DNA of 64,000 bases from Neocallimastix sp. 'constans' (lineage: Eukaryota), in contig JBODTK010000011.1 in assembly GCA_050613775.1 (NCBI GenBank), positions 1,302,001 to 1,366,000 of the forward strand. Direction: 5' to 3'. The notes beneath the pieces were generated by a model, which was not told the origin of the DNA, ran no database searches, and was given only the letters and a program-made list of their open reading frames with translations. Of this stretch, positions 18,892 through 53,488 are shown in pieces. Position 1 is the stretch's first letter. Each line of letters begins with the position of its first letter. The translations under genes and the position numbers were made by a program.

Positions 18892-19155
18892 TACTAATTT
18901 TGTGCCATTTTATTTCATCAATTCAATCTTAGTCATTAAATACTTTATGATATTCAATTTAAATAATATACTGAAAAAAGTGCTAAATCAAATTATTTTT
19001 CAATCATTCAACAAACTACTAATTATCGAAATTATTTACTCCAAAAAGATATAAAATTATTACAATTCTCATTATACTCAAGACTTTATAATAAAAATTG
19101 ACTTTTTTTTATTTTTTTTATTTTAGTTATTAATTTTTAGTTTTTTATTACTATT

Positions 19156-24859: not shown

Positions 24860-26086
24860 GGCTATAAAAAGTTCAAAAAATTATTAATTGAGGACTTTAT
24901 TGGAGTTATAGATTTAAATCTCGCAATTCTTATGTTAGTCTCTATGATATTACTCGTGAATTGAGAATACCTCCTCTTTCAGCTGTGTGTGCTATATCTC
25001 AATTACGATGCTTTAGAAAATGGAAAAATTCTTCATGTATTATTAATCATCTCACTAATAATATTCCTACTAGGTCACATTACTCATGGACTAAAGAATC
25101 AAGGACTTTGGATAAGAAATTAAATGGTAAGAAAACAAGTGAAATAAAAAAGTTTTATTGGGAAAGAGATGTCTTCAAACCCTCAAAAGCTAAAAAAGCA
25201 ATTATTTACAAGGAGAATGACTTTGGATTTATTTCAGAAATCAGAAACTTAACATTTCAATATCCTAAGTATCAGTTGGAATTCTTTTGGATTTCTCGAA
25301 TTAGGTGTGGTTTTAAATTTGACATTAGTATTTCCATTAAAAGAAAAATCGTCTCAGAAGATTGCCCTAAATGTTGTCCTTGTTGCGGTGTTAGTGTACC
25401 TAGTTTTTATCTCTGGATCTTTGCCTGTAAAGAATTGGAAAATTACAGAAATAAATCTTTACCTTTTCTAGATGATCTCTTTTTGAAGTTTGCAATGATA
25501 ATTGAACAAAAATCCTTGAATGTTTCTTTAGATTCAGAAAAGGATTATGATAATAATATTTATTATTATATATTGAGTACTCTTCTTGGCGGGCGTTCAA
25601 AATATTCAAAAATTAAAGTTAGTGATGGGGAACAAAGACAATTAGTTGACAATATTTTTAAACAAAGTTCAACTTCGTCAACTGTTTCGTATTTTGTGGG
25701 GATTGCGGAGTTTCTAACAAATGTAATACCATTAATTAGATTGATGATGAAATGGTATTCCATTGAATCTATCGTTGCCGAGAGCGTCGACGTCGAAATG
25801 ATAAGGAATGGATTTTCACCTCCCGGTGAAATGACAGATACAGATTCGGATTGATAACACTAATACTGAAATTATTACTCACAATAATAGACGTGGTGTT
25901 ATTATCGAGGAATGGGAAAAGTTAGAGGCTATTGCTTCTAACGCACTTTTTATAATTTTATAATATATAATATTTTATTTCATGTATTTTATTATTTTTT
26001 TTTCTTTAAAATCATGTAATTTTATTTTTATTATTATTATAAATTAAATAAAGTTATTCTCTTAGTCTAAAAAAAAAAAAAAAAAA
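24860..26086 (+). mobile_element. 5'-truncated divergent LINE (element D), ORF remnant to 25854, 3' UTR and A18 tail
   Basis: RIPPLSAVCA..KWKNS.CII..WTKESRTL..CPKCCPCC..LLGGRS aligns with the post-RT region of A/B; one stop near 24888. Confidence 0.9.
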
Positions 26087-29218: not shown

Positions 29219-32200
29219 TTATAAATACATTAGCTCTGATAACTTTAACCATGTAATTAAAACATATTCTCTACCTTTAATTTTTGAATTAATATACTTG
29301 TTTAATTTTGTTCTATTTGAAATAATAGGAAACCAGTTTAATTGTTTTATATTATCTAAATCATATTCTGAAATAAAATTATTTTTTCTTCTAGATAATA
29401 CAGTAACATACCATGAATAATTTGTTCTGTAAAATAATAACTTATTATTAAATTCACAATAAAAAAGAGATTTTTCTACTAGTTTCAATTCATCGAGTTT
29501 TATCTTTGTTTGCTCTTCCTCTTTCTTTTTCTTTTTCTTTTTCTTTTTCTTTTCTTCCTCTTCTTCCTCTTTAATTTCTTTTTCATTTAATATTTTATGT
29601 TTTAATCTATCTATATCATCAGAAGATAATTTTAATTCTAACCCATAATCATTCATTATATCCATTTCAGGTTTAAGTAATAATTTTGCTGATTTTTTAG
29701 CTCTTTCCATTCCATAAATATTAATATTATTAAATAATGTTTCAATTGCAAATTTCACCTCACTAAATTTTGAAGCTTTATTAATAATCTCATTATCAGT
29801 AAATACTTTTGATTTATGAATTCCTACTACTTCATAATTTTTATTTAAAAGAGGTGAACCAGAAGATCCATTATTTGTCAATACTTCATGATAATAATTA
29901 AAACCACAAACATTTATTATATTTCCATGTGATAATGAATATTCCGCCTTAGCATATTGAAAAATCAAAATCGATTCATTTATTTTAGCATCTTTATTAC
30001 TAGGTTTAAGAAATATTGGATTAATTTCTTTAATAATTTTATAATTTATTTCAATGAAAGTAACATCAATTAATTCAGATGTAAATATAAAATCTTCATC
30101 ATTAATTTTAATCTCCGTGGCCTGTTTTTCATCATTAGCCAAATATATTATAAATGAATTTCCTGTTTTAAGATTATTTTCATTCAATACATGATTATTT
30201 GTCATTAAACCACGCATTGGGTATTTTTCAGATGGAATTGGAATTTCAATAAAGAATCCTGTACCAGTGAAAGTAGTTTTTATTTTGCAGATAGATCGAT
30301 TTATTTTATTATAATATTTATTATTTTCTGTTGTACTCCCTCTGTTTAACATATAATTTTCTCTTATATTGGTTGTAGTTGAAGTTTTATTTTTACTTTA
30401 CGAATTATTATATTTATTTATATAATTTTTTATTATAAATTTATATATAAATTTTTAAAAATAAAAAAAATTAAAAAAAAAAAAAAAATAGAAAATGAAA
30501 AGAAATAAATAAATTGTATAAAATGAAAAATATAATATTTTAATTTTTTAATTTTTCAAAAAATATATTTTATAATATTAGATTATACATATGTTTATTT
30601 TTAATACCTATATATATATATATATATACATATTTTTAAAATTAAAAATTAATTCATTAATTAAAATTACAAGTAAATGTTAATATATTAGTTTTAAGAA
30701 ATTTAATATCATATTAAAAATATAAAGTCGAACCTGTATGAATTATCATTTTCAGATAATTTACCTTGTATATTAATAAAGAATTCATTTTGAATTAATA
30801 TAATATTATATTATATTAATTGAAAAATTATATTATATTATTATCAATTAACAAATGAAATAATACCTAATAAGATATTAACTAATTTATTATTATCATT
30901 TAATTTATATGTAGTTGTTAGTGGTGTATCCTTATAAGAATTTATTTTATTTGATAACGTTTTATTTTTTTCCATTAGAGATTGTATAATTTCAATATGG
31001 CCTAAATAGCATCCAATATGTAAAGGTAAATTATTTTTATTATCTGATATATCAACTTTTGCATTTTGAGTAATAAGACAGTCTACTAGGCTTTTATTTT
31101 TAAAATAACATGCTACCATTAATGGACTTATGCCATAGATAGATTTTTTATCTATTTTAATTTTTTTACTTTTTAATAAACATTTTACTAATTCTATATT
31201 ATTTTTTTTACATGCAATTATTAATGGTGTATCACCATATCTATTTCTTTTATTTATTTTCATCCCTTTATTAATTAATTTTTTTACTTCATCAATATTT
31301 TCTTTTTTACATTCAAATGTCAATAAATTATCATCATTTATTTTTTTTCTTTTATTTCTTTCTTTTTTTATTTTGTTTTCTTCTATTTTTTCTTGTATAC
31401 TCAGTTCATTAAACTTTTTTGAAAGTTCACCATTTTCATTAAAAATTATTTCTATTATATTTTTATTTTTATAGTCGTATAATAATCTTATAAATTCAAT
31501 ATTAATTTTTGAAATGTCCTTTAAATTACTATTTCCATAATAATTTGAAGAAATTGCATTTTCGATATCTTGTTCATTAATTTTCAACTTATTATTGATT
31601 CTTTTAGTATAATCTATTAATAATTTAAACATTTCAAGATTATTATTATCGATTGCTCCAAAGATGGGGAAATATTCTTTTATATTTTTGCCCATGATAT
31701 TCAGAATTTTATTATTTTCATTAGCATAATCCATTAATAATATAATCATTTCAATATTATTATTTTTGATAGCTCTCAAAATTGGATATTCGTTAAAATT
31801 ATCCATTTCATTTAATTCCAAATTAATATTTTTTTCATTAGCATAATCTATTAATAATTTAACCATTTCAATATTATTTTTTGTAATAGCGATTAAAAGT
31901 GGAAAAGCTCCGTTAACGTCTTTTTCACTTATTTCCAAAAAAATATGTTTTTGATTGGCATAATATATTAATAAATTAATAAGTTCAATATTGTCTTGTT
32001 CGACCGTTTCTAAAAGTGGATAATTTCCATCATTGTTTTTCTCATTTATACTTAAAATAATATTTTTATTATTGGCATAATCTATTAATGATTTAATCAT
32101 TTCAATATTATTATTATAAGTTGCCCATAAAAGAGGATAATATCCATCATTGTTTTTCTCATTTATACTTAAAATAATATTTTTATTATTGGCATAATCT

Positions 32201-34835
32201 ATTAATGATTTAATCATTTCAATATTATTATTATAAGTTGCCCATAAAAGAGGATAATATCCATCATTGTTTTTCTCATTTATACTTAAAATAATATTTT
32301 TATTATTGGCGTAATCTATTAATAATTTAATCATATCAATATTATTATTATAAGTTGCCAACAAAAGAGGATAGTATCCATTATTGTTTTTTTTATTCAT
32401 CTCCAAAATCATTTCAATTTCATTGGCATAATCTATTAATAAATTGACTATTTCAATATTATTATTTCTATTATTAATGGCACCTAATAGTGGATAATCT
32501 CCACCATTATTTTTTTCATTAATATTCAAAATAATTTTATTATTTTTGGCATAATCTATTAATACTTTAGCCAATTCAATATTACTATTTGTATTATTAT
32601 TAGTAATAATTAAAAGCGAATACCATCCATCTTCATCTTTTTCATTAAAATCTAATACTATTTCGTTTTTAATGGCATCATTTAATATTTTTTTTAATTT
32701 TGCAACATTATTGTTTTTAATTGTATCATTAATTTCTATTATTTTTTCTTTTTTCATATTGTTTTCTTTTTTATTCATTTCATTAAGCATTTTTGAGAGT
32801 CTACTATTTTCACTAAATATTAATTCTATTATTGAATTTTTATTTCTGTATTTATTCAATAAACTTATAAATTCACTATTAATATCTAAAATATTTTCTA
32901 AACGGTTATTATTCCATTTTTTTGAAATTTCATTTTCAATATCTTTTTCATCTACTATTAATTTAATTTTTTCCTCCTTTTTTGCATAATTTATCAAAAT
33001 TTTAAATAATTCAATATTATTATTATTCAAAATTATAAGTAATGGGAAATTTTCATTATTATCTTTTTCATTTATTTCCAAAATAATTTCATTTTTAAAG
33101 GCATAATCCACCAATAGTTCTACTATTTTAATATTATTATTGTAAATGGCACATAGAAGTGGATAATTTCCATCGTTATTTTTTTCATTTAGGTTTAAAG
33201 CAATATTATTTTTGTTGCTATAATCCAGTAATAATTTAACTATTTCAATATTATTATTATATATAATATTTAAAAGTGGATATCTTCCATTATTATCTTT
33301 TTCATTCATTTCTAAAATAATTTTATTATTTTTAGCATATTCTATTAATAATTCAATTATTTCAAAATTTTTTTTATTATAAGTAGCATTTAAAAGTGGA
33401 TAATTTCCATCTCTATCTTTATCATTTATTTTCAAAATAATTTCATTTTTATTAGCATATTCTATTAGTAATTTGACCATTTCATTATTTATATTATTAT
33501 TAGTATTAGTAAAAAGATAATAACTTTTATTATTAATAGCAATTAAAAGTGGATATCTTCCATAATCATCTTTATCATTAATATTCAAAATAATTTGGTT
33601 TTCAATTGCATAATTCATTAATAATTTAACCATTTCAATGTTATTATTATTAAGTTCTTTATTATTAATAATCATCATATTATTATTACATTTATTATAA
33701 ATAGCATTTAAAAGTGGAAAATTTCCATGGTTATCAATTTCATTAATATTCAAAGTTATATTATGCTTACTAGCATAATTAATTAATAACTGAGCTAATT
33801 TAATATTATTTTTAGAAGTCGTTATTAACAATGGATAATTTTTATATCTATCTTTTTCAACTATTTCTAAAATTATGTTATTTTTATCCGCATAATCCAT
33901 TAATAATTTGACTATTTCAGTAGCGTCCTCATTATAAATTGCTTTTAAAAGTGGATATTCTCCACTATGATTTTTTTCATTCATATCCAAAATTATTTCA
34001 TTATTATTGGCATATTCCAATAATAATTTAACCATTTTAATATTTTTTGAAACAGATAATAACAGTGAATTTTCTCCATTATAATTTTTTTCATTAATTT
34101 TCAAGATAATATTATTATTATTGGCATATTCTATTAATAATTTAACTATTTTTATATTATTAATGGCATTTAAAAAGGGGTTACTATAACTATTATAACT
34201 AATATCCAAAACAAATTCATGACTATTGGCATAATCTATTAGTAGTTTAACCATTTCAAAATTATTATTATTAATAGCATTTATAAGTGGGTATTTTGTT
34301 TCTTTTTTTCCATTTACATTTAAAATAATATTATTTTTATCAGCATATTCTATAAATAATTTGACCATTTCAATATTATTATGGTCAGTGGCACATAAAA
34401 GTGGATATTCCTCATATTTATCTTTATCATCTACATTTAAAATAATATTATTTTTATTGGCATAATCTACTAATAATTTAACTATTTCAATATTTCCTGA
34501 ATTTAAAAGTGGATATTTTCCATCTTTATCTTTTTCATTTATGTTTAAAATAATATTATTTTTATTGGCATAATCTACTAATAAATTAATCATTTCAATA
34601 TTATTTCTATTAGTAGCATTTAAAAGTGGATATTTTCCATCTTTATCTTTTTCATTTATGTCTAAAATAATATTATTTTTATTGGCATAATCTACTAATA
34701 AATTAACCATTTCAATATTATTTATATAAGTAGCATTTAAAAGTGGATATTTTCCATTTTTATCTTTTTCATTTATGTTTAAAATAATATTATTTTTATT
34801 GGCATAATCTACTAATAAATTAACCATTTCAGTGC

Positions 34836-34868
<33 letters not shown>

Positions 34869-36483
34869 TGGTGGCAAACAAAAGTGGATAATTTCCGTAA
34901 TTATTTTTTTCGTTTATTTCCAAAATAATTTTATTTTTATTGGCATAATCTATTAATAATTTGACTATTTCAATATTATTATTTATAGTAATTAAAAATG
35001 GATAATTTCCATCTTTGTCTTTTTCATTTAGGTTTAAAATAATTTTACTTTTATTGGAATATTCCATTAGCAATCTAATTACTTCAATATTACTATTATT
35101 AATGGCACAGAGAAGTGGATACAATCCTTCTTTATTCTTATCATTTATTTTTAAAATTATATTATTTTTATTTGCATATTCTATTAATAATTTAATCATT
35201 TCAATATTATTATATCTATTAGTTGTTGAAATTAAAAATGGATAATTACCTTTTATATCTTTATCATTTATGTTTAAAATAATTTTATTTTTATTTGCAT
35301 ATTCTATTAATAATTTAATTATTTCAATATCATTAACATATGCAACTTTTAAAAGAGTATAATTCCCATCTTTATTTTTTTCATTTACCTTTAAAATAAT
35401 TTTTTTTTCATATGAATAATTCACTAATAATTTAACCATTTCGACATTACTATTATCAATGGCACAGAGAAGTGGATACAACCCTTTTTCATTTTTTTCA
35501 TTAATTTTCAAAATAATATTATTTTTATTGGCATAATCTATTAATAATTTCACCATTTCAACATTATTTTCTCTATCTTCAAAAGAATTTAAGTATGAAA
35601 TTTTTTTATTATCAATAGCCACTAAAAGAGGAAAATTTCCATGTTTTTCTTTTCCATTCATTTCCAAAATAATTTTATTTTTATTGGCATAATCCATTAA
35701 TAATTCAACCATTTTAATATTATTATTATAAATTACATTTAAAAGAGGATACTCTCCATCTTTATTTGTTTCATTTATTTCCAAAATTATATTATTTTTA
35801 TTGGCATATTCTATTAATAATTTAACCATTTCAATATTATTATTTTTATTAATAATTGCAATTAAAAATGGATAATTACCATCTCTATCTTTTTCATTTA
35901 TATTTAAAATAAATTTATTTTTATCGGCATACTCCATTAATAATTCAATTATTTCGATATTAATATATTTATTATTAGTGGCAATTAAAAGTGGAAATGC
36001 TCCATTTTCATTCTTATCATTAATATTCAAAATAAAATTATTTTTATTGGCATAATCTATTAACTTCTTTATTATTTCAGTATTATTATTTCTAATAGCA
36101 CGTAAAAGTGGACATCCAAATCTATTTTTTTCATTTAAATTTAAAATGATATTATTTTTGTTGGCATAATCTATTAACAATTGAACTATTTCAATATTAT
36201 TATATCCAATTCCACATAAAAGTGGATATGTCTCACTTTTATCTTTTTCATTTATGTCCAATTTAATATTATATTTATTGGCATAATCTATTAATAATTC
36301 AACCATTTCCTTATTATTATTATAAGTGGCATGTAAAAGTGAAGAACTTCCATATTTATCTTTTTCATTTATATTCAATATAATGTTTAGTTCTTCACTT
36401 TCGTTGAAAATTTTTTTTACTTTTTCAATATCATTATTTTTAAATGCATCAATAAATAAATTTTTACTATTAGATAATCCCAT
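29219..36483 (-). CDS. Ankyrin-repeat / trypsin-like serine protease fusion protein, paralogue 1; predicted exons 36483-30867, 30764-30734, 30395-29219 (2274 aa)
   Basis: MGLSNSK start; about 40 ankyrin repeats; GT-AG introns of 102 and 338 nt keep the frame; protease motifs GTGFF, TNNHV, IDVTF, GSSGSP, VVGIH. Domains are secure, the splicing is inferred. Confidence 0.85.
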
Positions 36484-36964
36484 AATGTTTAAATATTTTT
36501 TTTGAAGTAATATTTAATAACAACTTAATAAAAATATTCATATCTCAATCAAATAAAGAATTAATTTTATATAAGATTGAATTGCCCTAATTACATTGTT
36601 TCCATTTCAAATATATTTAGAAATGAACAAATGAAATTTTTTTTCTTTTATAATTATTTGATAATAAAATTTAAAATATTATATTAAAACTAATTTAAAA
36701 TTAAATTTATTTCTTATAATTCTTTTTACATTTTACAATAAAAAATTTTTTAAATAAATTTCCGAAATATATATATATATATATTATAGTAGCAATTATT
36801 GAGGACTTACTTATTTTTTTATTTATTTATTAAATATGTATATATTATTTTAAAATTAATAAAAAAAGTATTAATTGCCAAAATTGAATATAATAATTTT
36901 TAAACTAGTAATGTGGAATAAAAATAATATTCAAATTAAATTATTTAAATAAATTCAGAAAAAA

Positions 36965-37760
36965 GTCTATATGCAACGAACCTCACCTTCAAGATTATAA
37001 GATTTCTGTTAAAAGGAATTCTTATTTTGGATTAGGGTTTGAATTGACAATATAAAAAAAATTATGGTCTTTTCCTTCAGAGGCATTGACTCTACTGACC
37101 TTTCTTACTATATTTTCAGTGTTGACACTCCTGGTTAGTTTTGCGCTTATACCATTGGAAAAGCAATTCTTGTCGAATACAAACCCAAGGAATAATTTCT
37201 GTAAAGAGAGCAGAAGACACCACCAAGAATGGCGTTTTTGAATAATCACCAGAAATAATTTGGATCTTAAACAAAACATCTCATTCATTTTTTTTAATTT
37301 AAATCAATAATATCTGCATCTCTTCCACCAAGAAGGAAGTTATATAATCGGTAGCATGTCACATATATATTAACATTATTCAGAAATTACTCATATTAAT
37401 ATGAATAATATATATATAATATATTTATTCATATAAAAATTATTGAATATTTATCATGAGTAATTAATATAATAAAATTAGTAGAATTATGACTTTTTTC
37501 TTTATTTGAGAATATAATAAGTAAAGAGCGAAATAGGACCTCTGAGCTCTTCTTTTTTATTCATAGGTGGAAGTTGTTATTTACTAAATAGCCTTTACCG
37601 TTTCAAACCAATCTCTAATCAAGACTAATATGAGATATTTACCTTAATGATTTTATAACCGTGACTGGGTGTCTTATCAGTAATTTCCTTATCTTCTTTG
37701 GAAAAAGAAAATGATGTTCCATTCCAGATACATGTGAGATACATGTGTAACCATACAGTT
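36965..37760 (-). mobile_element. Degenerate LINE relic of the same superfamily (element F)
   Basis: Minus strand encodes LYNFLLGGRD, TPFLVVSSALFTEIIP and TRSVNTE, matching VFNFLLGGRS, TPFLVVTAALLQSIIP and TKSVNAE of A/B, with frameshifts. Upstream boundary uncertain. Confidence 0.8.
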
Positions 37761-38864
37761 AACTATATTTGATTCATAGATATGCCCTATCCTAATGTAA
37801 ACTCAGAATAATCATTAATATAAATTTAAAATCATTAAAATATCATATAGTTATACTTTGATCTTAATTCAGCTATAAATATGATCATCTATAATTGTAT
37901 CTAATATCACTTGTTTAAATGTTGTATTATTTTTAATTATTTTTTTATTTATATTTAAAATAATTTAATATTATTTTGTTAAATTATTTTATTACATAAT
38001 CTTTTTAATTATATTTAATCCAAATATATCCTATTTTTTTTGAATTATTAAAAGTATTAAAAAAGTTTTTATCTTTAAATATATTTTTAATAGACTTTTT
38101 TTATTATTAATGATATGATTAAGTTTAGTGATTTATCTCTAAAAATATATGATAATTAATATAATAAATGAAATATATCCATAATAATAAATTTAAAAAA
38201 GCGGTTGTGAAAAGAAAAAATTAAATAAAATAAATTTTAATTGATAATAGAGTATTACGTGATATTTATTAAATGAAAAATATAAAGAAAGAATAAAATT
38301 ATTCAATAAAAAAATAAAAAATAAAAAAAATAAAACAAAAACAAATAAGCAAAACAAAACAAAACAAAAAAAGACAAAATAAGACAAAACAAAAAAAAAA
38401 AAATAAATAATTTTTTATCTCTCATGTTTATAAAAAAGTCTTACGAAATGCTGTCTCCATAATTTTATAGTCTATCATAGACAAATATTTTAAATAATCA
38501 ATTTATAAATAACAAGATATCTTTTCCTAGAATAATTTTACATATTTAATATTCAAATTTTAATTTTTTTGTTTACTTATTATATACTTTATTAATATTT
38601 ATTGAAAATTAATCGTTATAATCAAAATAAACCATATTTTTTATTAATAGATGCATTTAAAAAAATTTGAGTCAAAAAATTTAGAATATAATATATAAAT
38701 TAAAGATTAATTATAAAATATTGTATTATTTCATTAATTAAAGTTTTATTCTTATTATGAAAATTTAAACTCTTAGTTGTAGTTATATCTTTTTCGTTCA
38801 ATTTGAATTATTACTAATAATAAATATATATATTTTTTAAACATTTATATTCCTATAGAAGGAC

Positions 38865-41800
38865 TTATAGATACATTAATTCTGACAACTTTAACCATGT
38901 AATTAAAACATATTCTCTACCTTTAATTTTTGAATAAATATAGTTGTCTAATTTTGTACTATTTGAAATAATAGGATGCCAATCTAACTGTTTTATGTTA
39001 TCTAAATTATATTCTGAAATAAAAATTTTTTTTCTCCTAGATAATAAAGTAATATACCATGAATAATTTGTTCTGTAAAATAATAATTTATTATTAAATT
39101 CACAATAAAAAAGAGATTTTTCTACTAGTTCCAATTCATTGAGTTTTTTCAATTTTTTATTTTCTTTTTTTATGTTGTCTTCAGAAGATAATTTTAATTG
39201 TAATCCATAGTTATTCATTGTTTCGATTTCTGTCCTTAATAATAATCTCGCTGATTTTTTAGCTCTTTCCATCCCATAAATACTAATATTATTAAATAAC
39301 GTTTTAATTGCATAACTAATCTCACTATATTTAATAGCTATATTATTATTTACATTATTGATATTTGTGCTTGATTTATGGATTCCTACTATTTCATTAT
39401 TTTTATTTAAAAGGGGTGAACCGCATGATTCTTCATTTATCAATACTTCATGATAATAATTAAAACTACAAATATTTTTTATATTTCCATGTAATAATGA
39501 ATATTCTTCATTAGAATACTGAAAAATCATAATTGATTCATTTATTTTAGCATCTTCATTACTAGGTTTAAGAAATATTGGATCAATTTCTTTAATAATT
39601 TTATAATTTATTTCAATAAAAGTAACATCAATTAATTCAGATGTAAATATAAAGTCTTCGTTGTTAATTTCGATCTCTGTGGCCTGCTCTTCATTATTAG
39701 CCAAACATATTATAAATGAATTTCCTGTTTTAAGATTATTTTCATTCAATACATGATTATTTGTCATTAAACCACGCAATGGGTAATTTTCAGATGGAAT
39801 TGGAATTTCAATAAAAAATCCTGTACCTATACAACCTATACTGGTATCAGTTGTTATTTTGCATATGGATTGACTTAATATTTTGTAAAATTCAATATAT
39901 TTAATTGGTTTTTGTTCATTTGAATTATTTGAATTACTATTTTCATAAATTATGGTGGAAGAGGAATTCTCATTTTTACTTCAATAATAATTTTATTTAT
40001 TTAATAAAATTATATAAACATAAAAAATTAATTTTTAAAAATGAAAGAAAGTAATAAAGATGAAATAAAATAATATATATATATATATATATAAATTATA
40101 ATTTAGTTATTATATAGTTTTAATAAAAATATAAACTAATATTATAAAATTATCTATTTTTAACATCTATTTATATTTTAAAAATAAAAATTAATTTGAA
40201 TTATGGATAAATGTTAAGTATATTAGATTTAAGAAATTAATTATTGCATTAATAATATATAATCGAACCTGTCTGAATTATCATCTTCAGATGAAATACC
40301 TTTTTAAAGCGTGTACATAAATAAATAGTTTTATTGTAAATTAATATACTTATTATATATTATATAAATTGAAAAATTTTTATTTATTATTATCAATTAA
40401 AAAATGAAATACTACCTTCCAAGATATTAATTATATTATAATTTATATTTATTTCTTTTGCAATTTTTAATGGCGTATCATTATAAGAATTTGCTACATT
40501 TATAAGAGTATTATTTTTTTTTACTAGATATTGAGTAATTTCAGTATCGTGTAAATAACATTCAATATATAAAGGTAATTTTTTTTTTTTATCTTGTACA
40601 TTAACTTTCGCATTATGAGTAATTAGATAATCTACCAATTTCTTATTTTTAAAATAATATGCAACCATTAATGGATTAATACCGTATGTCGATTCTTTAT
40701 TAATTTTAATATTTTCATGTTTTAATAAGCATTCGACTAATTCAAAATTATTCTTTTTACATGCAATAATTAAAGGCGTATCGCCATCTGAATTTCTTTT
40801 ATTTATAATTATTTTCTTCCCTTCATTAATTAATTCTTCTACTTTTTTAATATTTCCTTTTTTACATTCAAATGTCAATGGATTGTCATTGTTTTCATTA
40901 TTATAATTTTCTCTTTCTTCTCTTTTCTTTTTTATTTGTTCTTCTTCTATTTCTTCTTCTTTACGTAGTTCTTTAAACTTTTCTGAAAGTTTACCATTTT
41001 CACTATAAATTATTTCTATTATTTTTTTATTTTCATAATTATATAATAATTTTATAAATTTAGAATTAATTTTTGAAATGTCCTCTAATTTATTATTTCC
41101 ATAATAATTTGAAGAAATTGCATTTTCAATATCTTTTTCAAGAATCTTCAATTTATTATTGTTTTTTTTTGTATATTCTATTAATAATTTAAGCATTTCA
41201 TAATTATTATTATTCAATATTCCAAAAATTGGGAAATATCCATTTGTGTCTTTTTCATTTACATTCAGAATAATATTATTTTTATTTGCATAATCGATTA
41301 ATAATTTAAACATTTCAATATTATTCTTTGCAATTGCTTTTAAAAGTGGATAATCTCCTTTTTGATCTTTTTCATTTATTTTTAGTTTAAAGTTTTTCCC
41401 GTTAGCATAATTTATTAATAAATTAGCTATTTCAATATTATTTTTTGTAATAGCAACTAAAAGTGGAAAATTTCCATTTACATCTTTTTCATTTATTTTC
41501 AAAAAAATATTATGCTTTATGGAATAATCTATTAATAAATTAACAATGTCTGTATTATTTTTATTAGTAGCTTCTAATAGAGGATAAATTCCATTTTTAT
41601 TTTTTTCATTTATATTCAAAGTAACATTATTTTTATTGGCATAATCTATTAATAAATTAATTAGTTCAATATTATAATACATATCAATAGCAATCAAAAT
41701 TGGATAATATCCGTCATTGTTTTTTTCATTCATTTCTAAAATTATTTTATTTTTATTTGAAAATTCCATTAATACTTTTATTATTTCAATATTATTTTTA

Positions 41801-44800
41801 TTATAAGTGGCTTTTAAAAGTGTGTAATTTCCATTTTCATCTTTTTCGTTTATATTCAAAATAATATTATTTTTATTGGCATCCTCCAAAACTATTTTTA
41901 ATTTTTCAATATTATTATTTTCAATTGCATCATCAATTTCTTTTAGTTTTTTTTTCATATTTATTTCTTTTTCATTTATTTCATTTAACATTTTAGCAAA
42001 TTTATTATTTTCATTGAATTTTAACTCTATTACTGGATTTTTATTTCTGTATTTATTCAATAATCTTATAAATTCAACATTAATTTCAGATATATTTTTT
42101 AGATGGACGTCACACCTTTTTATTGAAATTATATTTTCAATATCTTTTTCATCAATTATTAATTTAATTTGTTTCTCCTTTGCGTAATTTATCAAAATTT
42201 TAAATAATTCAATATTATTATTATCTATAATTCTATATATTGGAAAATTTTCGTAGTTGTCTTTTTCATTTATTTCCAAAATAATATTATTTTTATTGGC
42301 ATAACTCATTAATAAATTAACCATATCAATATTATTTTTATAAACAGCATGTAAAAGTGGATAATTTCCATCTTTATTTTTTTCATTCAATTCTAAGATA
42401 ATCTTATTTTTATTGGAATAATTCATTAATAATTTAATCATTTCAATGTTATTATTATTATTATAATTATTATAAATGAGATTTAAAAGTGGATAATTTC
42501 CATCTTTATTTTTTTCATTTATATCTAAAATAATTTCATTTTTATTGGCATAATCCATTAATAATTTAATAATTTCAATACTACTATGGATATTATTAGT
42601 AGCACTTAAAAGTGGATACCATCCATTTTCATCTTTTTCATTAATATTCAAAATAATATTGTTTTTATTGGCATAATCCATTAAAGATTCAACCATATCA
42701 ATATTATTCATAGTGATGGATAATAAAAGTATATTATTTCCATTTTTTGTTTTTTCATTTATCTTCAAAGTAATATTATTTTTAATGGAATAATCCATTA
42801 ATAATTGAATCATATCAATATTATTATTATCAATGGAACCTAAAAGCGGATACAATCCATCTTCATTCTTATCATTCATTTCTAAAATAATGTTATTTTT
42901 ATTAGCATAATCAATTAATAATTCAAACATTTCAATATTATTATTATGGGTGGCATGAATAAGTGGATAATTTCTTTTATCATCTTTTTCATTAATTTTC
43001 AATTTAAAGTCTTTATCAATGGCATAATCTATTAATAATTTAATCATTTCAATATTATTATTATGAGTGGCTTCTAAAAGGGGATAATTTCTATTTTCAT
43101 TTTTTTCATTCATTTCTAAAATAATTTCATTACTATTGGCATATTCTATTAATAATTTAACTATTTTAATATTATTCGTATAAGTGGCTTCTAAAAGTGG
43201 ATAATTTCCACTTTTATTTTTTTCATTCATTTCCAAAATTATTTTATTTTCAGTGACATAGTCTATTAATAATTTAACCATTTCAGTATTATTTTTCATA
43301 ATAGCAATTAATATTGGAAAGAATCCATTAATATTTTTTTCATTTATTTTTAAAATAATATCATGTTTTTTTGAGTATTCAATGAGTAATTTAGCAATTT
43401 CCATATTATTATTTTCGATGGCTTTTAAGAGTGGATAATTTCCTTTTTCATTTTTTTCATTTATATTCAAAACAATATTATTATTATTTGCATAATTTAT
43501 TATTAAGTTAACAATTTCAAAATTATTAATATCAGAAGCACCTAAAAGTGGATAATTTCCATTTCCAATATTATCTATATTAGTATAAATAAAAAATCTT
43601 ATAGTCTCAATTTTTTCATTCAAATTTAAAATAATATTATTTTTATTGGCGTAATCTATTAATAATTTAACAATTTCAATATTATTATTTTTATTATATA
43701 TGGAACTTAAAAGTGGATAATTTCCACTTTTATTTTTTTCATTTATTTCTAAAATAATTTTATTGTTATTGGCATAATCCATTAATAATTTAACTATTTC
43801 AATATTACTATTTTTAGAAGCTTTTAAAAGTGGATAATTTCCTTCGATATCTTTTTCATTCATTTCCAATATAATATTATTGTTGTTTGCATAATCTATT
43901 AATAATTTAATCATTTCACTATTATGATTTTTAGAAGCTTCTAAAAGTATATAATGTCCATCTTTATCTTTTTCATTCATTTCCAATATAATATTATTGT
44001 TGTATGCATAATCTATTAATGATTTAACCACTTCAACATTATTATTCATGGTTGCTTTTAAAAGTGGATAATTTCCATATTTGTCCTTTTCATTTATTTT
44101 AAAAATAATATTATTGTTGTTTGCATAATCTATTAATAACTTAATCAATTCACTACTATGATATTTAGAAGCTTCTAAAAGTGGACAATTTCCATTTTTA
44201 TCTTTTTCATTCATTTCCAATATAATATTATTGTTGTTTGCATAATCTATTAATAACTTAATCATTTCACTACTATGATATTTAGAAGCTTCTAAAAGTG
44301 GACAATTTCCATTTTTATCTTTTTCATTCATTTCCAATATAATATTATTGTTGTTTGCATAATCTATTAATAATTTAATCATTTCACTATTATGATTTTT
44401 AGAAGCTTCTAAAAGTATATAATGTCCATCTTTATCTTTTTCATTCATTTCCAATATAATATTATTGTTGTATGCATAATCTATTAATGATTTAACCACT
44501 TCAACATTATTATTCATGGTTGCTTTTAAAAGTGGATAATTTCCATATTTGTCCTTTTCATTTATTTTAAAAATAATATTATTGTTGTTTGCATAATCTA
44601 TTAATAACTTAATCAATTCACTACTATGATATTTAGAAGCTTCTAAAAGTGGACAATTTCCATTTTTATCTTTTTCATTCATTTCCAGTATAATTTTATT
44701 GTTGTATGCATAATCTATTAATGATTTAACCACTTCAACATTATCATTCTTAGTAGCTTTTAAAAGTGGATAATTTCCATATTTATCTTTTTCATTAATT

Positions 44801-46437
44801 ATCAAAATAATGTTATTGGTACTGGCATAATCCATTAATAACTTAATCATTTCACTACTATGACTTTTAGAAGCTTCTAAAAGTGTATAATTTCCTTCTT
44901 TATTTTTTTCATTCATTTCTAAAATAATCTCATGTTTATTAGCATAATCTATTAATAATTTAAGCATATCAATATCATTATGGCTAAAGGCTGTGAGAAG
45001 TAGATTATTTCCAACATTATTTTTATTATTTATTTCTAAAATTATATTATTTTCATTGGCATAATCTATTAATGATTTAACTGTATTAATATTACTAAAA
45101 TTAAAGGCTGTGAGAAGTAGATTATTTCCATCATTATTTTTATTATTTATTTCTAAAATTATATTATTTTCATTGGCATAATCTATTAATGATTTAACCA
45201 CTTCAACGTTATTATTCATGGCGGCTTTTAAAAGTGGATAATTTCCATATTTGTCCTTTTCATTTATTTCAAAAATAATTCTATTGGTATTAGCATAATT
45301 CATTAATAATTTAACCATTTTACTATCCCTTGTATTAGAAACACTTAAAAGTGGATAATTTCCTTCATTATTTTTTTCAATTATTTCCAGTATTATTTTA
45401 TTTTTATTAGCATAATCAATTAATAATTCAAAAATTTCAATATTATTTTTAATAATGGTTTCTAAAAGTGGATAATTTCCTTTATCATCTTTTTCATTAA
45501 TTTTCAATTTAAAGTCTTTATCTTTGGCATAATCTATTAATAATTTAAACATTTCAATATTATTTTTATGAACTGCTTCTAAAAGGGGATAATTTCTATC
45601 TTCATTTTTTTCATTCATTTCTAAAATAATTTCATTACTATTGGCATATTCTATCAATAATTTAAACATTTCAATATTATTATTAATAATGGTTTCTAAA
45701 AGTGGATAATTTCCTTTTTTATTTTTTTCATTTATTTTCAAAATTATTTTATTTTCATTGACATAATCTATTAATAATTTAAATATTTCACTATTATTTT
45801 TATGAACTGCTTCTAAAAATGGGTAGCATCCCTCCCAATTTTTTTCATTTATTTCTAATATAATTTTATGTTTATTGGCATAATATATTAATAATTTAAT
45901 CATTTCAATATTTTTATTTTCAGTAGCATATAAAAGTGGATAATACCTATTTTCATTTCTCTCATTAATTTCCAAAATTATTTTTTTTTCATCGGCATAT
46001 TTCATTAATAATTTAGCCAATTCAGCATCATTGTAATCAAATGCAACTAAAAGTGGATAAAACCCACTTACATGTTTTTCATTTAGTTCCAAAATAATAT
46101 TATTTTCATTGGCATAATTCATTAATAAGTTAACCATTTCCAAATTATTTTCTCTATTATTAATGGCAAGAATAAGTGGATAATATCCATCTTTATTTGC
46201 ATCATTCAAATTTAAAATGATATTTTTTTCATTGGCATAATCTATTAATAATTTAACCATGTCAATATTATTATTATTAACGGCAATTAAAAGTGGATAA
46301 ATTCCAAATACATCTTTTTCGTTAATATTCAAAATAATATTCTTTTTATTGGCTTCATCAAAAAACTTTTTTACTTTTTCAATTTCATTATCTATAATTA
46401 AATCAATTAATTTATCTTTACTAAAAGATAACCCCAT
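38865..46437 (-). CDS. Ankyrin-repeat / trypsin-like protease fusion protein, paralogue 2 (nucleophile position Cys); predicted exons 46437-40416, 40299-40269, 39978-38865 (2388 aa)
   Basis: MGLSFSK start; ankyrin array; GT-AG introns of 116 and 290 nt at the same positions and phases as paralogue 1. The protease frame is open from 39980 without an ATG before GTGFF; motif ESCGSP. Confidence 0.85.
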
Positions 46438-47201: not shown

Positions 47202-48650
47202 GAGAGGAATCGTGAATTTCGCAATGTGGCGTTTTTGTATGTGGCTTGTTTTTTTAATGATTAAATAAATAATAATTAAATAAATAATTAAATGAATAAT
47301 AAATAATCTTTTTTTATATAATTTATTAATATTCAATTGTAAAAATAATTTTTTATAATTTTTTTTAATAGAATATATTATTATTTCTTTTAAGATAATG
47401 TAAATTTAAACCCTAATTTATATAAAAATATTAAAACTTTTAAACAATTATTTTTGTTAATTTAAAAAATCCAATTCACTGATTTTTTTTATTAAGAATT
47501 ATTTTAACTATTAATTAATTGTAATTCGAAAAATTTTATTAATCATTTTTATTTGGTCGTTTTTTCGTTAAATATTAATTATTTATTTTTTAATAAATAA
47601 TTTTAATATTTATATCTCTTACACACTTCAACCTTAATTCAACGAATTCATTTCTTTTTCTTTTTTCTTTTTTTTTTTTTTTTTTAATGGAATTTCCATA
47701 TTTTTGTAATATTTAATTAAGGCATTTATTTCATCAGTTCTTCTTAATTTTTTTTTAACTTTTTTTCCCAAACTCCACTTTTTCTCATTTGTAATCTTCA
47801 TAGAATAATGAATCTACTTTTTGTAAAGTTAATAAAAATTTATATATAAATCGTTTAAATAATTGTTGAATGATTCTGAGGCATTATTTGTTATATGCTC
47901 TATATTATCATAATAATTCCAATGTTCAATTTCAAAATCTTTTAAATAAGTTATTTCAAAATATTCTAAAAATTCCAAAAAATTGTCCTAATTAAGTTCA
48001 AGACATTCGCTTTTGATTTTATTATAAATATCATTTATATATTCAGAGTTTATAAAGGGAAAGTTTGAAATAAACTTATAATGAATGTATAAATCAATAT
48101 TATTTTCTACTTTTTACGACTTAATTTATTTTTTTTTTAATTTCTAATGTTCTTTTATAATGGTATGTACTATATTTGATATTTATATCAGGAAACACAT
48201 TTTTAGCAGCATTAGAAATACCTTTTTCAAAATTACAATGAAAATTTTTTGGAATTTTTTTGGAGTAATTATAATATTATTATTTTTTTTAGGCATTTTT
48301 CTTTATTTCTTCAAATAACACTTCATAAGTTCTTTGTTCTTTATTTTTTAATATTGAAAAGGATGTAGTGTAAAAATTATTTAATTCCTTAACATAAGTT
48401 CTAGTAATTAACACTTGATAACCACATTTTTTTTTTTTTTTATTTTTTTATTTTTTTTAATTTTTTATTTTTTTTATTTTTTTTATTTTTTTATTTTTTA
48501 TTATCAAATATATATATATTAATTATTATAAAATAAAATATTTATTTAATTGTTATTTAATTATTTATTTATATAAAAAATTTATATATAATACGCCATC
48601 TTAAAAAATAAGTGGCTTATAATTAAACACGTGCGGGTCCGAAACGCACT
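47202..48650 (-). mobile_element. Degenerate MULE with transposase remnant (~47700-48425)
   Basis: Minus strand reads FHCNFEKGISNAAKNVFPDINIKY and HWNYYDNIEHITNNASESFN, homologous to the transposase at 1107-2546, with stops and deletions; terminal motif ATTTCGCAATGTGGCG near 47215. Right end approximate. Confidence 0.85.
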
Positions 48651-49535: not shown

Positions 49536-50132
49536 TTAATTTAACCCTAATTCTAATAATTTTTCAGAAGGAAATTGTGGAAAAGGAATGACGGGATCTG
49601 GATGTGGATTGAATTCAGCAATTGTTTTTCCCATCCAAACCATATGATACCATCTATCAAATTTATATCCACAATTCTTAAATTCACCAATCTTCTTAAA
49701 TCCTATATGACTATGGAATTGAACACTATTATTTGTTAAATATTCATCTTCAATTTCGGGATAACCAATACAAGCATAAAGAGTAATAATATTTTGAGCT
49801 CTTGAAATATTTTCAATAATTTGATAAAACCTTTTTCCTAAACCATTATTTGTACAATTATGTTTAATATATATAGTTGTTTCTACACACCAATCGTATG
49901 CTTTTTTTCCTACAAAAGGACCTGTGTAGGCATAACCAATAATTTCGCCATCTTTTTCTGCAACAATATATGGATATTTTTTTAAAGTACGTTCCATACG
50001 TGAACGGAATTCATCAACTGTTGGAACAGTGTATTCAAAAGTGATAACAGTGTTTAATACATAATATTCATATATTTTTAAGATTGATTCAGCATCAGAT
50101 AATTCAGCTTTTCTTATTGTAATATTTGACAT
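49536..50132 (-). CDS. GNAT N-acetyltransferase, phosphinothricin/methionine-sulfoximine acetyltransferase (Pat/YncA)-like, 198 aa
   Basis: IRKA..SD..IY.YYV.NTVITFE, YPYIVAE.DGEIIGYAY, ETTIYI, GLGK, SVQFH..GF, CGYKFDRWYHMVWM. Confidence 0.92.
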   Translation of the reverse strand: MSNITIRKAELSDAESILKIYEYYVLNTVITFEYTVPTVDEFRSRMERTLKKYPYIVAEKDGEIIGYAYTGPFVGKKAYDWCVETTIYIKHNCTNNGLGKRFYQIIENISRAQNIITLYACIGYPEIEDEYLTNNSVQFHSHIGFKKIGEFKNCGYKFDRWYHMVWMGKTIAEFNPHPDPVIPFPQFPSEKLLELGLN

Positions 50133-50777
50133 TTTATTTTAAGAAATCTAATTTAATTATTAATTTGTATAAATATAAAATATTATTATTTTTTAATTAT
50201 TTTAATTATAAAAATAATTATAAAATCCTCTATATTTTTATTAATCTAATAAAATTCTATAATTTCTATTTCTTTTTTTTTTTATATAAAAAAAAAAGTT
50301 TTTATCAGTCTTCATTAAGCATTTTATCTATATTTATATCTAAAATAATAATAATAATATAATTATATAATGATTATAATAAATATTAAAATTACATTTA
50401 TCCTTTTTTTTTTTTTATTAAAATGATAATACTAATATAATATTTATTTATATTAATAATTTGTGATAATTAATAATTAATACATATAAATATTTTTTTT
50501 TTATTTTTTTTTTTTTTTTTTAATATATATTTAATTTTTTATGTAATACAAATACAATACAAATACAATTGAATTTATCTTTGTTAATTTACAATGGGAA
50601 AAATAATCAAAAAAAAAAAAAAAAAATTAATAATATTTAAGATAATCAAAGAAATCATAAATAAATAATTAAATAATTAAATAATTAAATAATTAAATAA
50701 ATGTAATTAAATATAAATAAATATAGTGTAAATTAATATAATTTAAATTAATGATTAGGCAATTACTAAATAATAGT

Positions 50778-51744: not shown

Positions 51745-52815
51745 TCATTCTTCAGCAATTTGATAATACTTCACTCTATCTCTGAATTTTATATTGGTTT
51801 CCTTGAATCCCCCAATTTCTAAATAGATTTTATTAACAACATTGGCATAAATTTCCCATTTTTCCTTACCAAGCATTTTATATTTTTCAAACATGAATGG
51901 TGTTGGTTTAATAATTGGTAATTCAGCGTAGGGTATTTTTATATTGTAAACACAAATTGTTCTTATAAAGAAAAGGAATCTATTCGTAGAACATGGGAAG
52001 TTTTTATTCGGTAAAACAATTAAAGGCTTTAACGGTAATAGAGATATGAAGGTTCCTTTTTTAAAAGTGGCTAGATATTTACCATTAGTTGTTGTTCCTT
52101 CAGGAAATACTAAGGTTCTAACATAACTTTTTTTATTATAGAAATCCTGTTGACGTTGAATAAGGGTATCTAATGCATTTTTTCTGCTTTTTTCACTTTC
52201 TCTGTTTACAAAGAAGGAACCTAGTTCTCTTAGAGCAGCTCCTACTGCAGGTGCTCTAACAAGTTCATATGTAATCAAATAGCTTACACCATATTCTTTC
52301 ATATAGGCTGCAATTTCCAGATAACCTAAATGATTACTTATATATAAAGAGAAATCTTTTTGGGAGAAATCATAATCTTCACCTAAGTATTTTTTATATA
52401 TTTTTTCGTATGGAATGACTTTTTTTTCAATAGAAATATTATTTATAAAGAAATAAATTCCAAGCCAAAAGTTCGTAGCATTCTCAATTTTTTTTCTTTG
52501 AAATTTATCGTGTTCATGATTTTTATATATTATTTTTAAGATTTTCAAATTTAGTTTAAGCATAAAATAAGAAAGTAAAACTAAGGGAAGTCTAATTGGT
52601 AATAATAAAGTCCCAATTCCAACAAATTCAAAATAATTAAGATTGTCAATTGGTACTAAGGGTGCAAATTTATATTGTATATCAAATTCATTTCCTGTTT
52701 CCTTTTCCTTATATATTTTATGTTTGTAATATTTCTTCAAAATATAATAAGCATAATTTAGACATACAAAAGCTATTAAATATATAATAGCAATAATTAT
52801 AAAACCATTTTTCAT
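51745..52815 (-). CDS. Lysophospholipid/glycerolipid acyltransferase (PlsC / LPCAT-like), 356 aa
   Basis: N-terminal TM segments, SNHLGYLE (block I), FVNR, VFPEGTTTNG, FKKGTF. Confidence 0.9.
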   Translation of the reverse strand: MKNGFIIIAIIYLIAFVCLNYAYYILKKYYKHKIYKEKETGNEFDIQYKFAPLVPIDNLNYFEFVGIGTLLLPIRLPLVLLSYFMLKLNLKILKIIYKNHEHDKFQRKKIENATNFWLGIYFFINNISIEKKVIPYEKIYKKYLGEDYDFSQKDFSLYISNHLGYLEIAAYMKEYGVSYLITYELVRAPAVGAALRELGSFFVNRESEKSRKNALDTLIQRQQDFYNKKSYVRTLVFPEGTTTNGKYLATFKKGTFISLLPLKPLIVLPNKNFPCSTNRFLFFIRTICVYNIKIPYAELPIIKPTPFMFEKYKMLGKEKWEIYANVVNKIYLEIGGFKETNIKFRDRVKYYQIAEE

Positions 52816-53488
52816 ATTTATGTTTATATATATATAAATACTTTTTTTATTTTTTTATTTTTTATTTTTTACTTTTATATTTTTATATTTTTATATTTTT
52901 ATATTTTTATATTTTTTATTTTTATATTTTTTATTTTTATATTTTTATATATTTTTATATTTTTATATTTTTTATTTTTATAATTTTTATTTTTATATTT
53001 TTTATTTTTATATTTTTTATTTTTATTTTTTATATTTAATGAAAAAAAAAAAAAAAAAAAAAAGAAAAAAGAAAAAAAAGAACAGAAAATTAAAAAAAGA
53101 ACAGAAAATTAAAAAAAAGAACAGAAAATTAAAAAAAGATCACAAAATTAAAAAAAAGATCACAAAATTAAAAAAAAAAAACACAAAATTAAAAAAAAAA
53201 AGAAAAGAAAATTAAAAAAAGATCACAAAATTAAAAAATAAGAAAAGAAAATAAAAAAAGATCACAAATCTAATTAAAATTTTATTTCTATATAAAAATT
53301 AATGATTAAAACTATTTTTATGTACATTTTTGTGTGACAAAGAACAAATTAAAAAATTATTATCAAAATTTTCTTTTCCCTAAAAAAAAAATATATTTGT
53401 TTTGATATTAATAATTTTAATAAAAATTATTATTTATTTATTAATTTGATGGAATTTTATATATTTAATTGATAGTATTTTATTAAAT

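What the first reader, a model, noticed from the sequence alone, without database searches (positions are those of the whole stretch)
29219..46437. Tandem pair of giant myristoylated ankyrin-repeat / trypsin-protease fusion genes: candidate sensor-effector system
Seen: two paralogous loci, each with an MGLSxSK start, about 40 ankyrin repeats, a trypsin-like domain (His in TNNHV, Asp in IDVTF, nucleophile motif) and a conserved unknown C-terminal domain, joined by predicted splicing. Established: MGxxxS is the N-myristoyltransferase consensus; fungal NLR/HET receptors use shuffled ANK/WD/TPR arrays as ligand sensors; protease-triggered cell death is known in fungi (HET-Q subtilisin/gasdermin) and trypsin-like proteases act as effectors in bacterial defence systems. 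Inference: membrane-tethered, cytosolic (no signal peptide), ligand-activated proteases forming a NOD-less immune-like or signalling receptor family. I do not recognise this architecture from described fungal genes.
Basis: partly seen in the sequence, partly recalled or inferred. Interest (0 to 1): 0.9.

Follow-up and report, generated by a model that had tools for sequence, protein, structure and literature searches.

The report
Ankyrin-array sensor proteases of gut fungi
Two neighbouring genes of an anaerobic gut fungus each join over 40 variable ankyrin-type repeats to a trypsin-fold protease and a small conserved tail domain that matched no known family or structure; they belong to an expanded gene family that likely works as ligand-gated proteases inside the cell, one of the two being predicted to be catalytically crippled.

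Summary
The window is Neocallimastix DNA with two paralogous minus-strand genes, G1 (2274 aa) and G2 (2388 aa). Each has an MGLSxSK start, about 40 units of a 39-residue ankyrin-type repeat, about 5 canonical ankyrin repeats, a linker, a chymotrypsin-fold protease and a C-terminal domain. The fusion needs two introns. A public contig too short to be genomic encodes G2's spliced product (742 of 743 residues), and a contig from a probable RNA run leaves G1 at the predicted donor. G1 has His-Asp-Ser plus Thr190/His213, the pocket of Glu/Gln-cutting proteases. At least 16 paralogues exist in N. californiae. The tail domain has no Pfam, PDB or fold match; it follows a trypsin-like domain in 74 of 75 informative relatives, some stand-alone and starting MGxxxS. 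Repeat variation sits on the ankyrin binding face (dN/dS 1.3, interval 0.99-1.77; framework 0.5). These are not NLRs: no nucleotide-binding domain, reversed order. Ligand gating is likely; an immune role is possible but untested. Myristoylation is not family-wide.

The parts
40416..46437 (-). G2 exon 1: MGLSFSK start, two blocks of 39-residue ankyrin-type repeats each closed by a spacer (about 42156 and 41145), then canonical ankyrin repeats from 40878
   Evidence: its 3' part is covered by P0158
40300..40415 (-). G2 intron 1, 116 nt, GT..AG, holds the stop of the unspliced ANK frame
   Evidence: skipped in P0158
40269..40299 (-). G2 mini-exon, 31 nt, acidic Ser/Asp/Glu linker
39979..40268 (-). 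G2 intron 2, 290 nt, GT..AG
38865..39978 (-). G2 exon 3: trypsin-fold domain (His 39755, Asp 39629, Cys 39425 in the nucleophile position; Gly193 to Glu, Thr190 to Ile) and C-terminal domain from 39311
30867..36483 (-). G1 exon 1: MGLSNSK start, two blocks of 39-residue ankyrin-type repeats with spacers (about 32955 and 31581), canonical ankyrin repeats from 31326
   Evidence: identical short contigs in runs X1, X2, X3, X5
30765..30866 (-). G1 intron 1, 102 nt, GT..AG, holds the stop of the unspliced ANK frame
   Evidence: X3 record 17 leaves the window at this donor
30734..30764 (-). G1 mini-exon, 31 nt (predicted; same junctions as NCBI model P0001)
   Evidence: homologous to the G2 mini-exon
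30396..30733 (-). G1 intron 2, 338 nt, GT..AG (predicted, not covered by reads here)
29219..30395 (-). G1 exon 3: trypsin-fold protease with His 30193, Asp 30067, Ser 29863 and Thr190/His213 pocket; C-terminal domain from 29749 with a poly-Glu/Lys helical insertion

Best explanation
G1 and G2 are spliced genes of an expanded gut-fungal family that fuses a variable ankyrin-type array to a trypsin-fold protease and a conserved tail domain, and they likely act as ligand-gated proteases inside the cell. Shown: the architecture, the G2 splice, the fold, the catalytic and pocket residues, the family size and where the repeats vary. Inferred steps: (1) the N-terminal glycine is myristoylated and holds the protein on an inner membrane; (2) the 39-residue arrays bind a protein ligand through their variable hairpin and inner-helix positions; (3) binding switches on the protease, by relieving inhibition from the canonical ankyrin block, linker or tail domain or by clustering protease domains, as ligand or dimerisation does in DegS and FAM111A; (4) G1 then cuts after Glu or Gln, possibly in its own linker, releasing the protease-tail unit or cutting a downstream target; (5) G2, with a damaged catalytic site, would act as a weak or dead partner, decoy or scaffold. 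Whether the ligand is foreign (immunity) or self (signalling) is open.
For: Splice: P0158 742/743; X3 contig leaves at the G1 donor; single-ORF ANK-protease-tail contigs L002, L014 and L015, the last with a poly-A end. Fold: model pLDDT 92.3, pTM 0.91; DegS Z 20.3, rmsd 2.8, 179 aligned; FAM111A Z 19.0, rmsd 3.4, 191 aligned; V8 Z 18.5, rmsd 3.2, 180 aligned. In 56 aligned family members His57 55, Asp102 55, Ser195 53, Thr190 55, His213 56; profile alignment puts these on V8's pocket residues; PMC5508998 (passages) calls His213 common to Glu- and Gln-specific proteases. Family: 16 N. californiae-named proteins, at most 88% identical in the protease core, and 12 with N. 'constans' accessions; also Piromyces E2 and Orpinomyces models. 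Repeats: highest entropy at positions 6, 7, 9, 14, 16, 17, 18 of the 39-mer; dN/dS 1.31 on 8 surface columns against 0.50 on the framework in 23 disjoint pairs; exact internal duplications of 372 nt (G2) and 168 nt (G1). Protease and tail are under purifying selection between G1 and G2 (dN/dS 0.56 and 0.34). 7 of 26 hand-picked stand-alone relatives start MGxxxS.
Against: No activity, ligand, substrate or induction data. The dN/dS interval on the surface columns includes 1 (0.99-1.77; 0.88-1.88 for the 16 closest pairs), so relaxed constraint fits too; the columns were chosen after seeing the repeats. G1's longest exact duplication (56 aa) is below the 100-residue high-conservation criterion. 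Only 42 of 76 aligned protease-tail sequences keep His-Asp-Ser, so proteolysis is often dispensable in the wider family. MGxxxS is absent from several ANK-fused homologues. The three NCBI models of G1 orthologues disagree on the ANK-protease junction (P0001, P0152, P0153). G1's linker is only weakly acidic (5 of 12 D/E/S against 8-10 in many homologues). Stand-alone protease-tail proteins exist without any array.
Confidence: 0.5

Rival explanations
1. The array is a substrate-recruiting scaffold for a constitutive or otherwise regulated protease in ordinary signalling, trafficking or protein turnover, with no gating by the array and no defence role.
For: The same 39-residue arrays are fused to HECT ligases, SH3, MATH and ubiquitin domains; some family members carry SH3 as well (P0006, P0007); relatives outside the fungal group fuse the protease-tail unit to kinases and B-box fingers; both genes are kept as an adjacent pair at 98-99.5% identity in three Neocallimastix genomes.
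Against: A fixed self-substrate does not call for about 40 units that vary mainly on the binding face and are still duplicating, nor for 16 or more paralogues.
Confidence: 0.3
2. The protease-tail unit is the functional part, and the long arrays are largely neutral growth by unequal crossing-over in a repeat-prone, AT-rich genome.
For: Array length varies from a few repeats to over 40 among paralogues; stand-alone forms exist; surface dN/dS is not significantly above 1; the window is rich in LINE and MULE elements.
Against: Both arrays are open frames of 5.6-6.0 kb at under 20% GC; framework dN/dS is 0.50 (0.41-0.61), so the repeat fold is selected.
Confidence: 0.15
3. The ankyrin and protease frames are separate genes, at least for G1, and the fusion is an annotation artefact.
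For: Each ANK frame has its own stop; G1's protease exon has an in-frame Met and is called alone on genomic contigs (P0154); no contig spanning both G1 introns was displayed.
Against: P0158 spans both G2 introns; G2's protease exon has no Met before the catalytic His; the X3 contig leaves at G1's donor; many homologues are single fused ORFs on short contigs.
Confidence: 0.05

Closest known systems
Fungal NLR-like receptors with ANK repeats (Dyrka et al., PMC4986451, passages)
   Same: Long ankyrin arrays with highly similar internal copies; variation on hairpin and inner-helix positions; enzyme effector fused to a repeat sensor; multi-gene family.
   Different: No NACHT or NB-ARC domain; repeats are N-terminal and the enzyme C-terminal; 39-residue units; trypsin-fold effector (the word trypsin does not occur in the main text of the effector survey PMC9815663, whose list has Peptidase_S8 and CHAT).
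HtrA/DegS and FAM111A chymotrypsin-fold proteases (PDB 2qf0, 8s9k; PMC10920703, abstract)
   Same: Same fold (Z 20.3 and 19.0); a predicted helix before the first strand; a C-terminal appendage where DegS has its PDZ sensor (DegS gating recalled); FAM111A is an intracellular protease switched on by dimerisation.
   Different: No PDZ match; the tail is an unrelated domain; pocket residues differ from FAM111A's chymotrypsin-like preference; oligomeric state untested.
Glutamyl endopeptidases of the V8/Esp/Spl type (PMC5508998, passages)
   Same: Best sequence matches in the PDB (E 1e-11) and top Foldseek rows; Thr190 and His213 kept in G1.
   Different: Those are secreted bacterial enzymes; these have no signal peptide and carry a repeat array and a tail domain. 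His213 alone does not fix Glu specificity according to the review.
HET-Q2/HET-Q1 protease-gasdermin system (PMC12881547, passages)
   Same: A fungal serine protease as a signalling trigger.
   Different: HET-Q2 is subtilisin-like; no gasdermin-like neighbour was seen among the 12 window ORFs scanned.
Bacterial trypsin-like effectors of conflict systems (PMC8195603, passages; retron XI RT-protease and PDC-S45 models)
   Same: Trypsin-like peptidase as effector; weak PADLOC matches to the protease part (E 2.9e-5 and 4.6e-7).
   Different: The matches cover only the generic protease domain; no effector-associated domain, NTPase or reverse transcriptase here.

Membership tests
Fungal NLR | Central NACHT or NB-ARC domain | tested here: not met
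   No such Pfam match in the four ORFs; no Walker A motif in either spliced model
Fungal NLR | N-terminal effector and C-terminal repeats | tested here: not met
   Order is repeats, then protease
Fungal NLR | ANK, TPR or WD repeat sensor with high internal conservation (85% over 100 aa) | tested here: met
   G2 has a 372-nt (124-aa) exact duplication; G1's longest is 168 nt and does not reach the length by itself; criterion from PMC4986451
Fungal NLR | Positive selection on the binding face | tested here: inconclusive
   dN/dS 1.31, interval 0.99-1.77, 23 disjoint repeat pairs, counting method
Fungal NLR | Repeat-number polymorphism between strains | not testable with these tools
   No genome held; public gene models skip most repeats
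Chymotrypsin-fold serine protease (clan PA) | Two-barrel fold | tested here: met
Chymotrypsin-fold serine protease (clan PA) | His-Asp-Ser triad and Gly193 in G1 | tested here: met
   His1951, Asp1993, Ser2061
Chymotrypsin-fold serine protease (clan PA) | His-Asp-Ser triad and Gly193 in G2 | tested here: not met
   Cys2203 in place of Ser, Glu at 193, Ile at 190; same motif in the N. californiae and N. lanati orthologues
Glutamyl endopeptidase (V8 type) | Thr/Ser190 and His213 in the S1 pocket | tested here: met
   G1 and 55 of 56 (Thr) and 56 of 56 (His) aligned members
Glutamyl endopeptidase (V8 type) | Secretion signal | tested here: not met
   No hydrophobic N-terminal segment by hydropathy; no dedicated predictor was run
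Glutamyl endopeptidase (V8 type) | Cleavage after Glu | not testable with these tools
   needs an assay
HtrA/Deg | C-terminal PDZ domain | tested here: inconclusive
   The tail has no Pfam match; its model gave no match above Z 3.3, which does not formally exclude a family
FAM111 | Dimerisation through the N-terminal helix | not tested
HET-Q protease-gasdermin pair | Subtilisin-type protease | tested here: not met
   Trypsin_2 and chymotrypsin fold
HET-Q protease-gasdermin pair | Linked gasdermin gene | tested here: inconclusive
   None among 12 of 44 window ORFs scanned; rest of the genome not available
N-myristoyltransferase substrate | Met-Gly start with Ser at position 6 (consensus recalled) | tested here: met
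   MGLSNSK and MGLSFSK; G1 has no open upstream acceptor within 120 nt, G2 has one
N-myristoyltransferase substrate | Myristate on Gly2 in the cell | not testable with these tools
   needs labelling or mass spectrometry

The most novel reading that the evidence does not exclude
Anaerobic gut fungi have built their own class of immune receptors without a nucleotide-binding switch: an old, often myristoylated protease-plus-unknown-domain module, shared with other microbial eukaryotes, was fused to fast-shuffling 39-residue ankyrin arrays, expanded to 16 or more genes, and paired with pseudoprotease partners such as G2, so that binding a foreign protein directly fires a Glu/Gln-cutting protease. 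The tail would be a new fold with its own ligand site (conserved FYRTNHxWYW motif).
Probability: 0.27. Interest if true: 0.85.

Novelty: new variant of a known kind. Interest (0 to 1): 0.6.

Why it matters
Ankyrin proteins are reported as expanded in anaerobic gut fungi with no known role (PMC8778642, passages). This finding attaches one large branch of that expansion to a definite enzyme with a predictable cut site, a built-in negative control (G2) and a conserved domain that no library here recognises. That makes it testable by ordinary expression and assay. If the gating is by foreign ligands, it would be a defence receptor class in an early-diverging fungal lineage that lives among dense bacterial and viral populations. 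Public gene models hide it: they are named 'ankyrin' and skip most of the repeats.

Tried and rejected
Whole-genome analysis: no genome held. Reads were laid only on 30690-34800 and only as assembled contigs, so G1's second intron, both starts and both 3' ends were not examined; the many long 'joints' in that output come from repeats and paralogues and were not used. Tail domain: no Pfam family (14 members, best E 0.011), no PDB sequence match, Foldseek best E 1.5, VIA-align best Z 3.3, rmsd 5.2, 80 aligned, no Atlas hit; the tail-only model has pLDDT 73.7, so these blanks do not prove a new fold. The Atlas search with stand-alone relative P0254 returned only generic trypsin-like clusters. A homodimer prediction of the protease-tail unit was not available, so oligomeric state is unknown. 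NCBIfam gave no match for the protease exons and only sub-threshold ankyrin matches for the array. Rejected: the PI-PLC-like extension in NCBI models of G1 (P0001, P0152, P0153) as part of the gene, because most family members end at the conserved LMYL-type terminus, the joined frame breaks shortly after and it needs a 1.8-kb intron; not tested with reads. Rejected: G2 as a 3C-like cysteine protease as the main reading, because Gly193 and Thr190 changed with it and Cys occurs in 1 of 56 sequences; residual activity is not excluded. No donor or direction of gene transfer is claimed: the tree is midpoint-rooted, most outside sequences are unnamed, and no clade test was run. Literature: searches found no paper describing this architecture; the library lacks most subscription journals, and supplements of PMC8778642 (peptidase family tables) were not opened and may list these proteins.
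Full report
Setting. The region is under 25% GC and mostly 15-22%. The G1 protease exon is 100% identical over its length to an NCBI protein of Neocallimastix sp. 'constans' named 'ankyrin' (P0001). No whole genome was available.

Anatomy. Four minus-strand frames are present as described. Each ankyrin frame ends in a stop. Two GT..AG introns around a 31-nt mini-exon give stop-free products of 2274 aa (G1, 36483-29219) and 2388 aa (G2, 46437-38865), with the same layout in both genes. Each product has an MGLSxSK start, two blocks of a 39-residue ankyrin-type unit each closed by a spacer of about 100 residues, about five canonical ankyrin repeats, a linker, a trypsin-like domain and a C-terminal domain. 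A broad motif count gives 38 and 41 long units; 22 and 33 are exactly 39 residues. There is no Walker A motif and no segment above 1.5 mean hydropathy over 19 residues.

Is the fusion real? For G2, yes. P0158 is a continuous 743-aa gene call on a 2447-nt JGI/IMG contig. It matches the last 743 residues of the spliced G2 model at 742 positions, across both junctions. The genomic span of that stretch is 2638 nt and contains a stop, so the contig is most simply a transcript; that it comes from RNA is my inference. It uses the donor of my model, not the one three bases later in NCBI's model P0157. For G1 the evidence is partial. In run X3, whose RNA status is a guess, a 417-nt contig matches 31043-30864 with no difference and then leaves. 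The predicted exon ends at 30867, and the intron and the mini-exon both begin GTA, so this is where a spliced molecule would diverge. Its continuation was not displayed. Identical short contigs of the G1 array occur in all 4 of 4 runs laid, one on record as RNA; contigs cannot show expression level. The NCBI models for G1 in three genomes disagree on the junction. In homologues, single-frame ankyrin-protease-tail contigs are common: L002, L014 and the poly-A-ended L015, and P0004, P0018, P0022, P0045.

The protease. The model of G1's protease and tail from a 56-sequence alignment has pLDDT 92.3 and pTM 0.91. Foldseek ranks Esp, V8 and Spl proteases first. VIA-align gives Deg2, DegS and Rv3671c at Z 20.3, FAM111A at 19.0 and V8 at 18.5, with most rows spanning only residues 1-213. 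G1 has His1951, Asp1993 and Ser2061. Thr190 is kept in 55 of 56 and His213 in 56 of 56 sequences, and the profile alignment places them on V8's equivalents. PMC5508998 (passages) names these as the shared pocket of Glu- and Gln-specific enzymes and warns that His213 does not itself determine Glu recognition. Cleavage after Glu or Gln is therefore a prediction. G2 has Cys at 195, Glu at 193 and is the only one of 56 with Ile at 190. The motif is kept in the N. californiae and N. lanati orthologues, which are 98-99% identical. From general knowledge of this fold (recalled), those changes point to a weak or dead enzyme.

The tail domain. It has no match in Pfam, PDB sequences, Foldseek, VIA-align or the Atlas. 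A profile search of 1.84 billion representatives found 127. Of the 75 with at least 170 residues before the tail, 74 have a trypsin-like domain there; 52 shorter ones were left out of that count. The triad is intact in 42 of 76 aligned sequences, while Arg, two Trp and several Leu of the tail are kept in 97-100%, so the tail is under its own constraint. Outside the fungal group the unit occurs alone at about 310-370 aa or behind kinase or B-box domains. Among 26 hand-picked stand-alone forms, 8 start MG and 7 MGxxxS; some may be truncated. Of ten such relatives looked up, seven were unnamed, one was an unnamed hypothetical protein, one lay in a Darwinula stevensoni assembly and one in an EukProt transcriptome, so the range is not established. 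In a FastTree tree of 99 sequences and 291 columns, all ankyrin-bearing sequences and all named gut-fungal proteins fall in one clade (support 0.99) together with three stand-alone forms; G1 and G2 are sisters (1.00). More distant trypsin domains without the tail sit on contigs with CCCCAAT repeats, which I recall as rumen-ciliate telomeres.

Family. Sixteen N. californiae-named proteins carry the tail, at most 88% identical in the protease core; 12 have N. 'constans' accessions (lower bounds from capped searches). Piromyces E2 and Orpinomyces models have the fusion too. G1 and G2 orthologues have neighbouring accession numbers on a shared contig in three Neocallimastix genomes. The same 39-residue arrays also occur with HECT, SH3, MATH and ubiquitin domains.

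Repeat evolution. Variation peaks at positions 6, 7 and 9 (hairpin) and 14, 16, 17 and 18 (inner helix), while the framework is nearly fixed. PMC4986451 (passages) reports the same surfaces under positive selection in Podospora NLR ankyrins. In 23 disjoint pairs from 46 distinct in-register units (9 of 55 dropped as out of register or duplicate), dN/dS is 1.31 (0.99-1.77) on eight surface columns and 0.50 (0.41-0.61) elsewhere. The columns were picked from ankyrin topology after I had seen the repeats. G2 has a 372-nt exact internal duplication and G1 one of 168 nt; the longest block shared between the genes is 40 nt. This fits a diversifying binding surface but does not prove selection.

Myristoylation. 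Both starts fit the recalled MGxxxS consensus. No upstream exon can join G1 in frame through an acceptor within 120 nt; G2 has an acceptor 18 nt upstream and one formally possible upstream coding exon. The motif in stand-alone relatives supports the idea for the module. Several ankyrin-fused homologues start otherwise, so it is not a family rule.

Mechanism and verdict. The likeliest reading (0.5) is a ligand-gated intracellular protease: array as sensor, protease as output, G2 as crippled partner. A constitutive scaffold-protease (0.3) and neutral array growth (0.15) remain. It works like a fungal NLR in its sensor and like DegS or FAM111A in its output, but fails the NLR membership test. An immune role is about 0.27. 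Eight literature searches found no description. PMC8778642 (passages) notes the ankyrin expansion in these fungi with unknown role. PMC12881547, PMC9815663 and PMC8195603 were read as passages and PMC10920703 as abstract; no supplements were opened. Earlier scan notes held nothing on this sequence and one analogous animal case, which I did not check.

Noticed in passing
window 14185-18633 and 19141-23601 (+): Two head-to-tail, 99% identical, intact single-ORF LINE-type elements (endonuclease, reverse transcriptase, zinc finger), suggesting a recent tandem duplication or insertion.
   Followed up: partly
window 24892-25854 (+) and about 37025-37400 (-): 3' fragments resembling the same LINE group by eye; the second lies between G1 and G2.
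   Followed up: no
window 27427 to about 26300 (-): PI-PLC-X-like gene (weak Pfam match, E 0.0014) with a frame break near 27100; NCBI models in three Neocallimastix genomes splice G1 into it and stop at the same place.
   Followed up: partly
window 1101-2546 (+) and about 47600-48400 (-): FLYWCH-MULE transposase with an internal stop, and what looks by eye like a decayed MULE remnant just upstream of G2.
   Followed up: no
window 49536-50138 (-) and 51745-52854 (-): A GNAT acetyltransferase (Acetyltransf_4, single ORF) and an acyltransferase gene.
   Followed up: no
window 13144-13959: A 409-bp near-exact tandem duplication just before the first LINE.
   Followed up: no
P0001, P0152, P0153, P0157, P0159, P0016: Public gene models of both genes omit most of the 39-residue repeats (930 and 681 aa against 2274 and 2388 aa), although the repeats are one open frame; giant repeat proteins of these fungi are probably under-annotated.
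   Followed up: partly
L017-L025: Contigs, several with CCCCAAT repeats, that fuse a related trypsin domain to leucine-rich-like repeats, ubiquitin-conjugating-like or other C-terminal parts, judged by eye: a promiscuous protease module in gut protists.
   Followed up: no
P0103, P0107, P0110, P0289, P0291: Unnamed proteins starting MG with a nearby Cys, holding two trypsin-like domains (the second degenerate) and the tail domain.
   Followed up: partly
L006:1188-1916: A bacterial-type sugar-transferase-like frame directly after a protease-tail ORF; possibly a chimeric contig.
   Followed up: no
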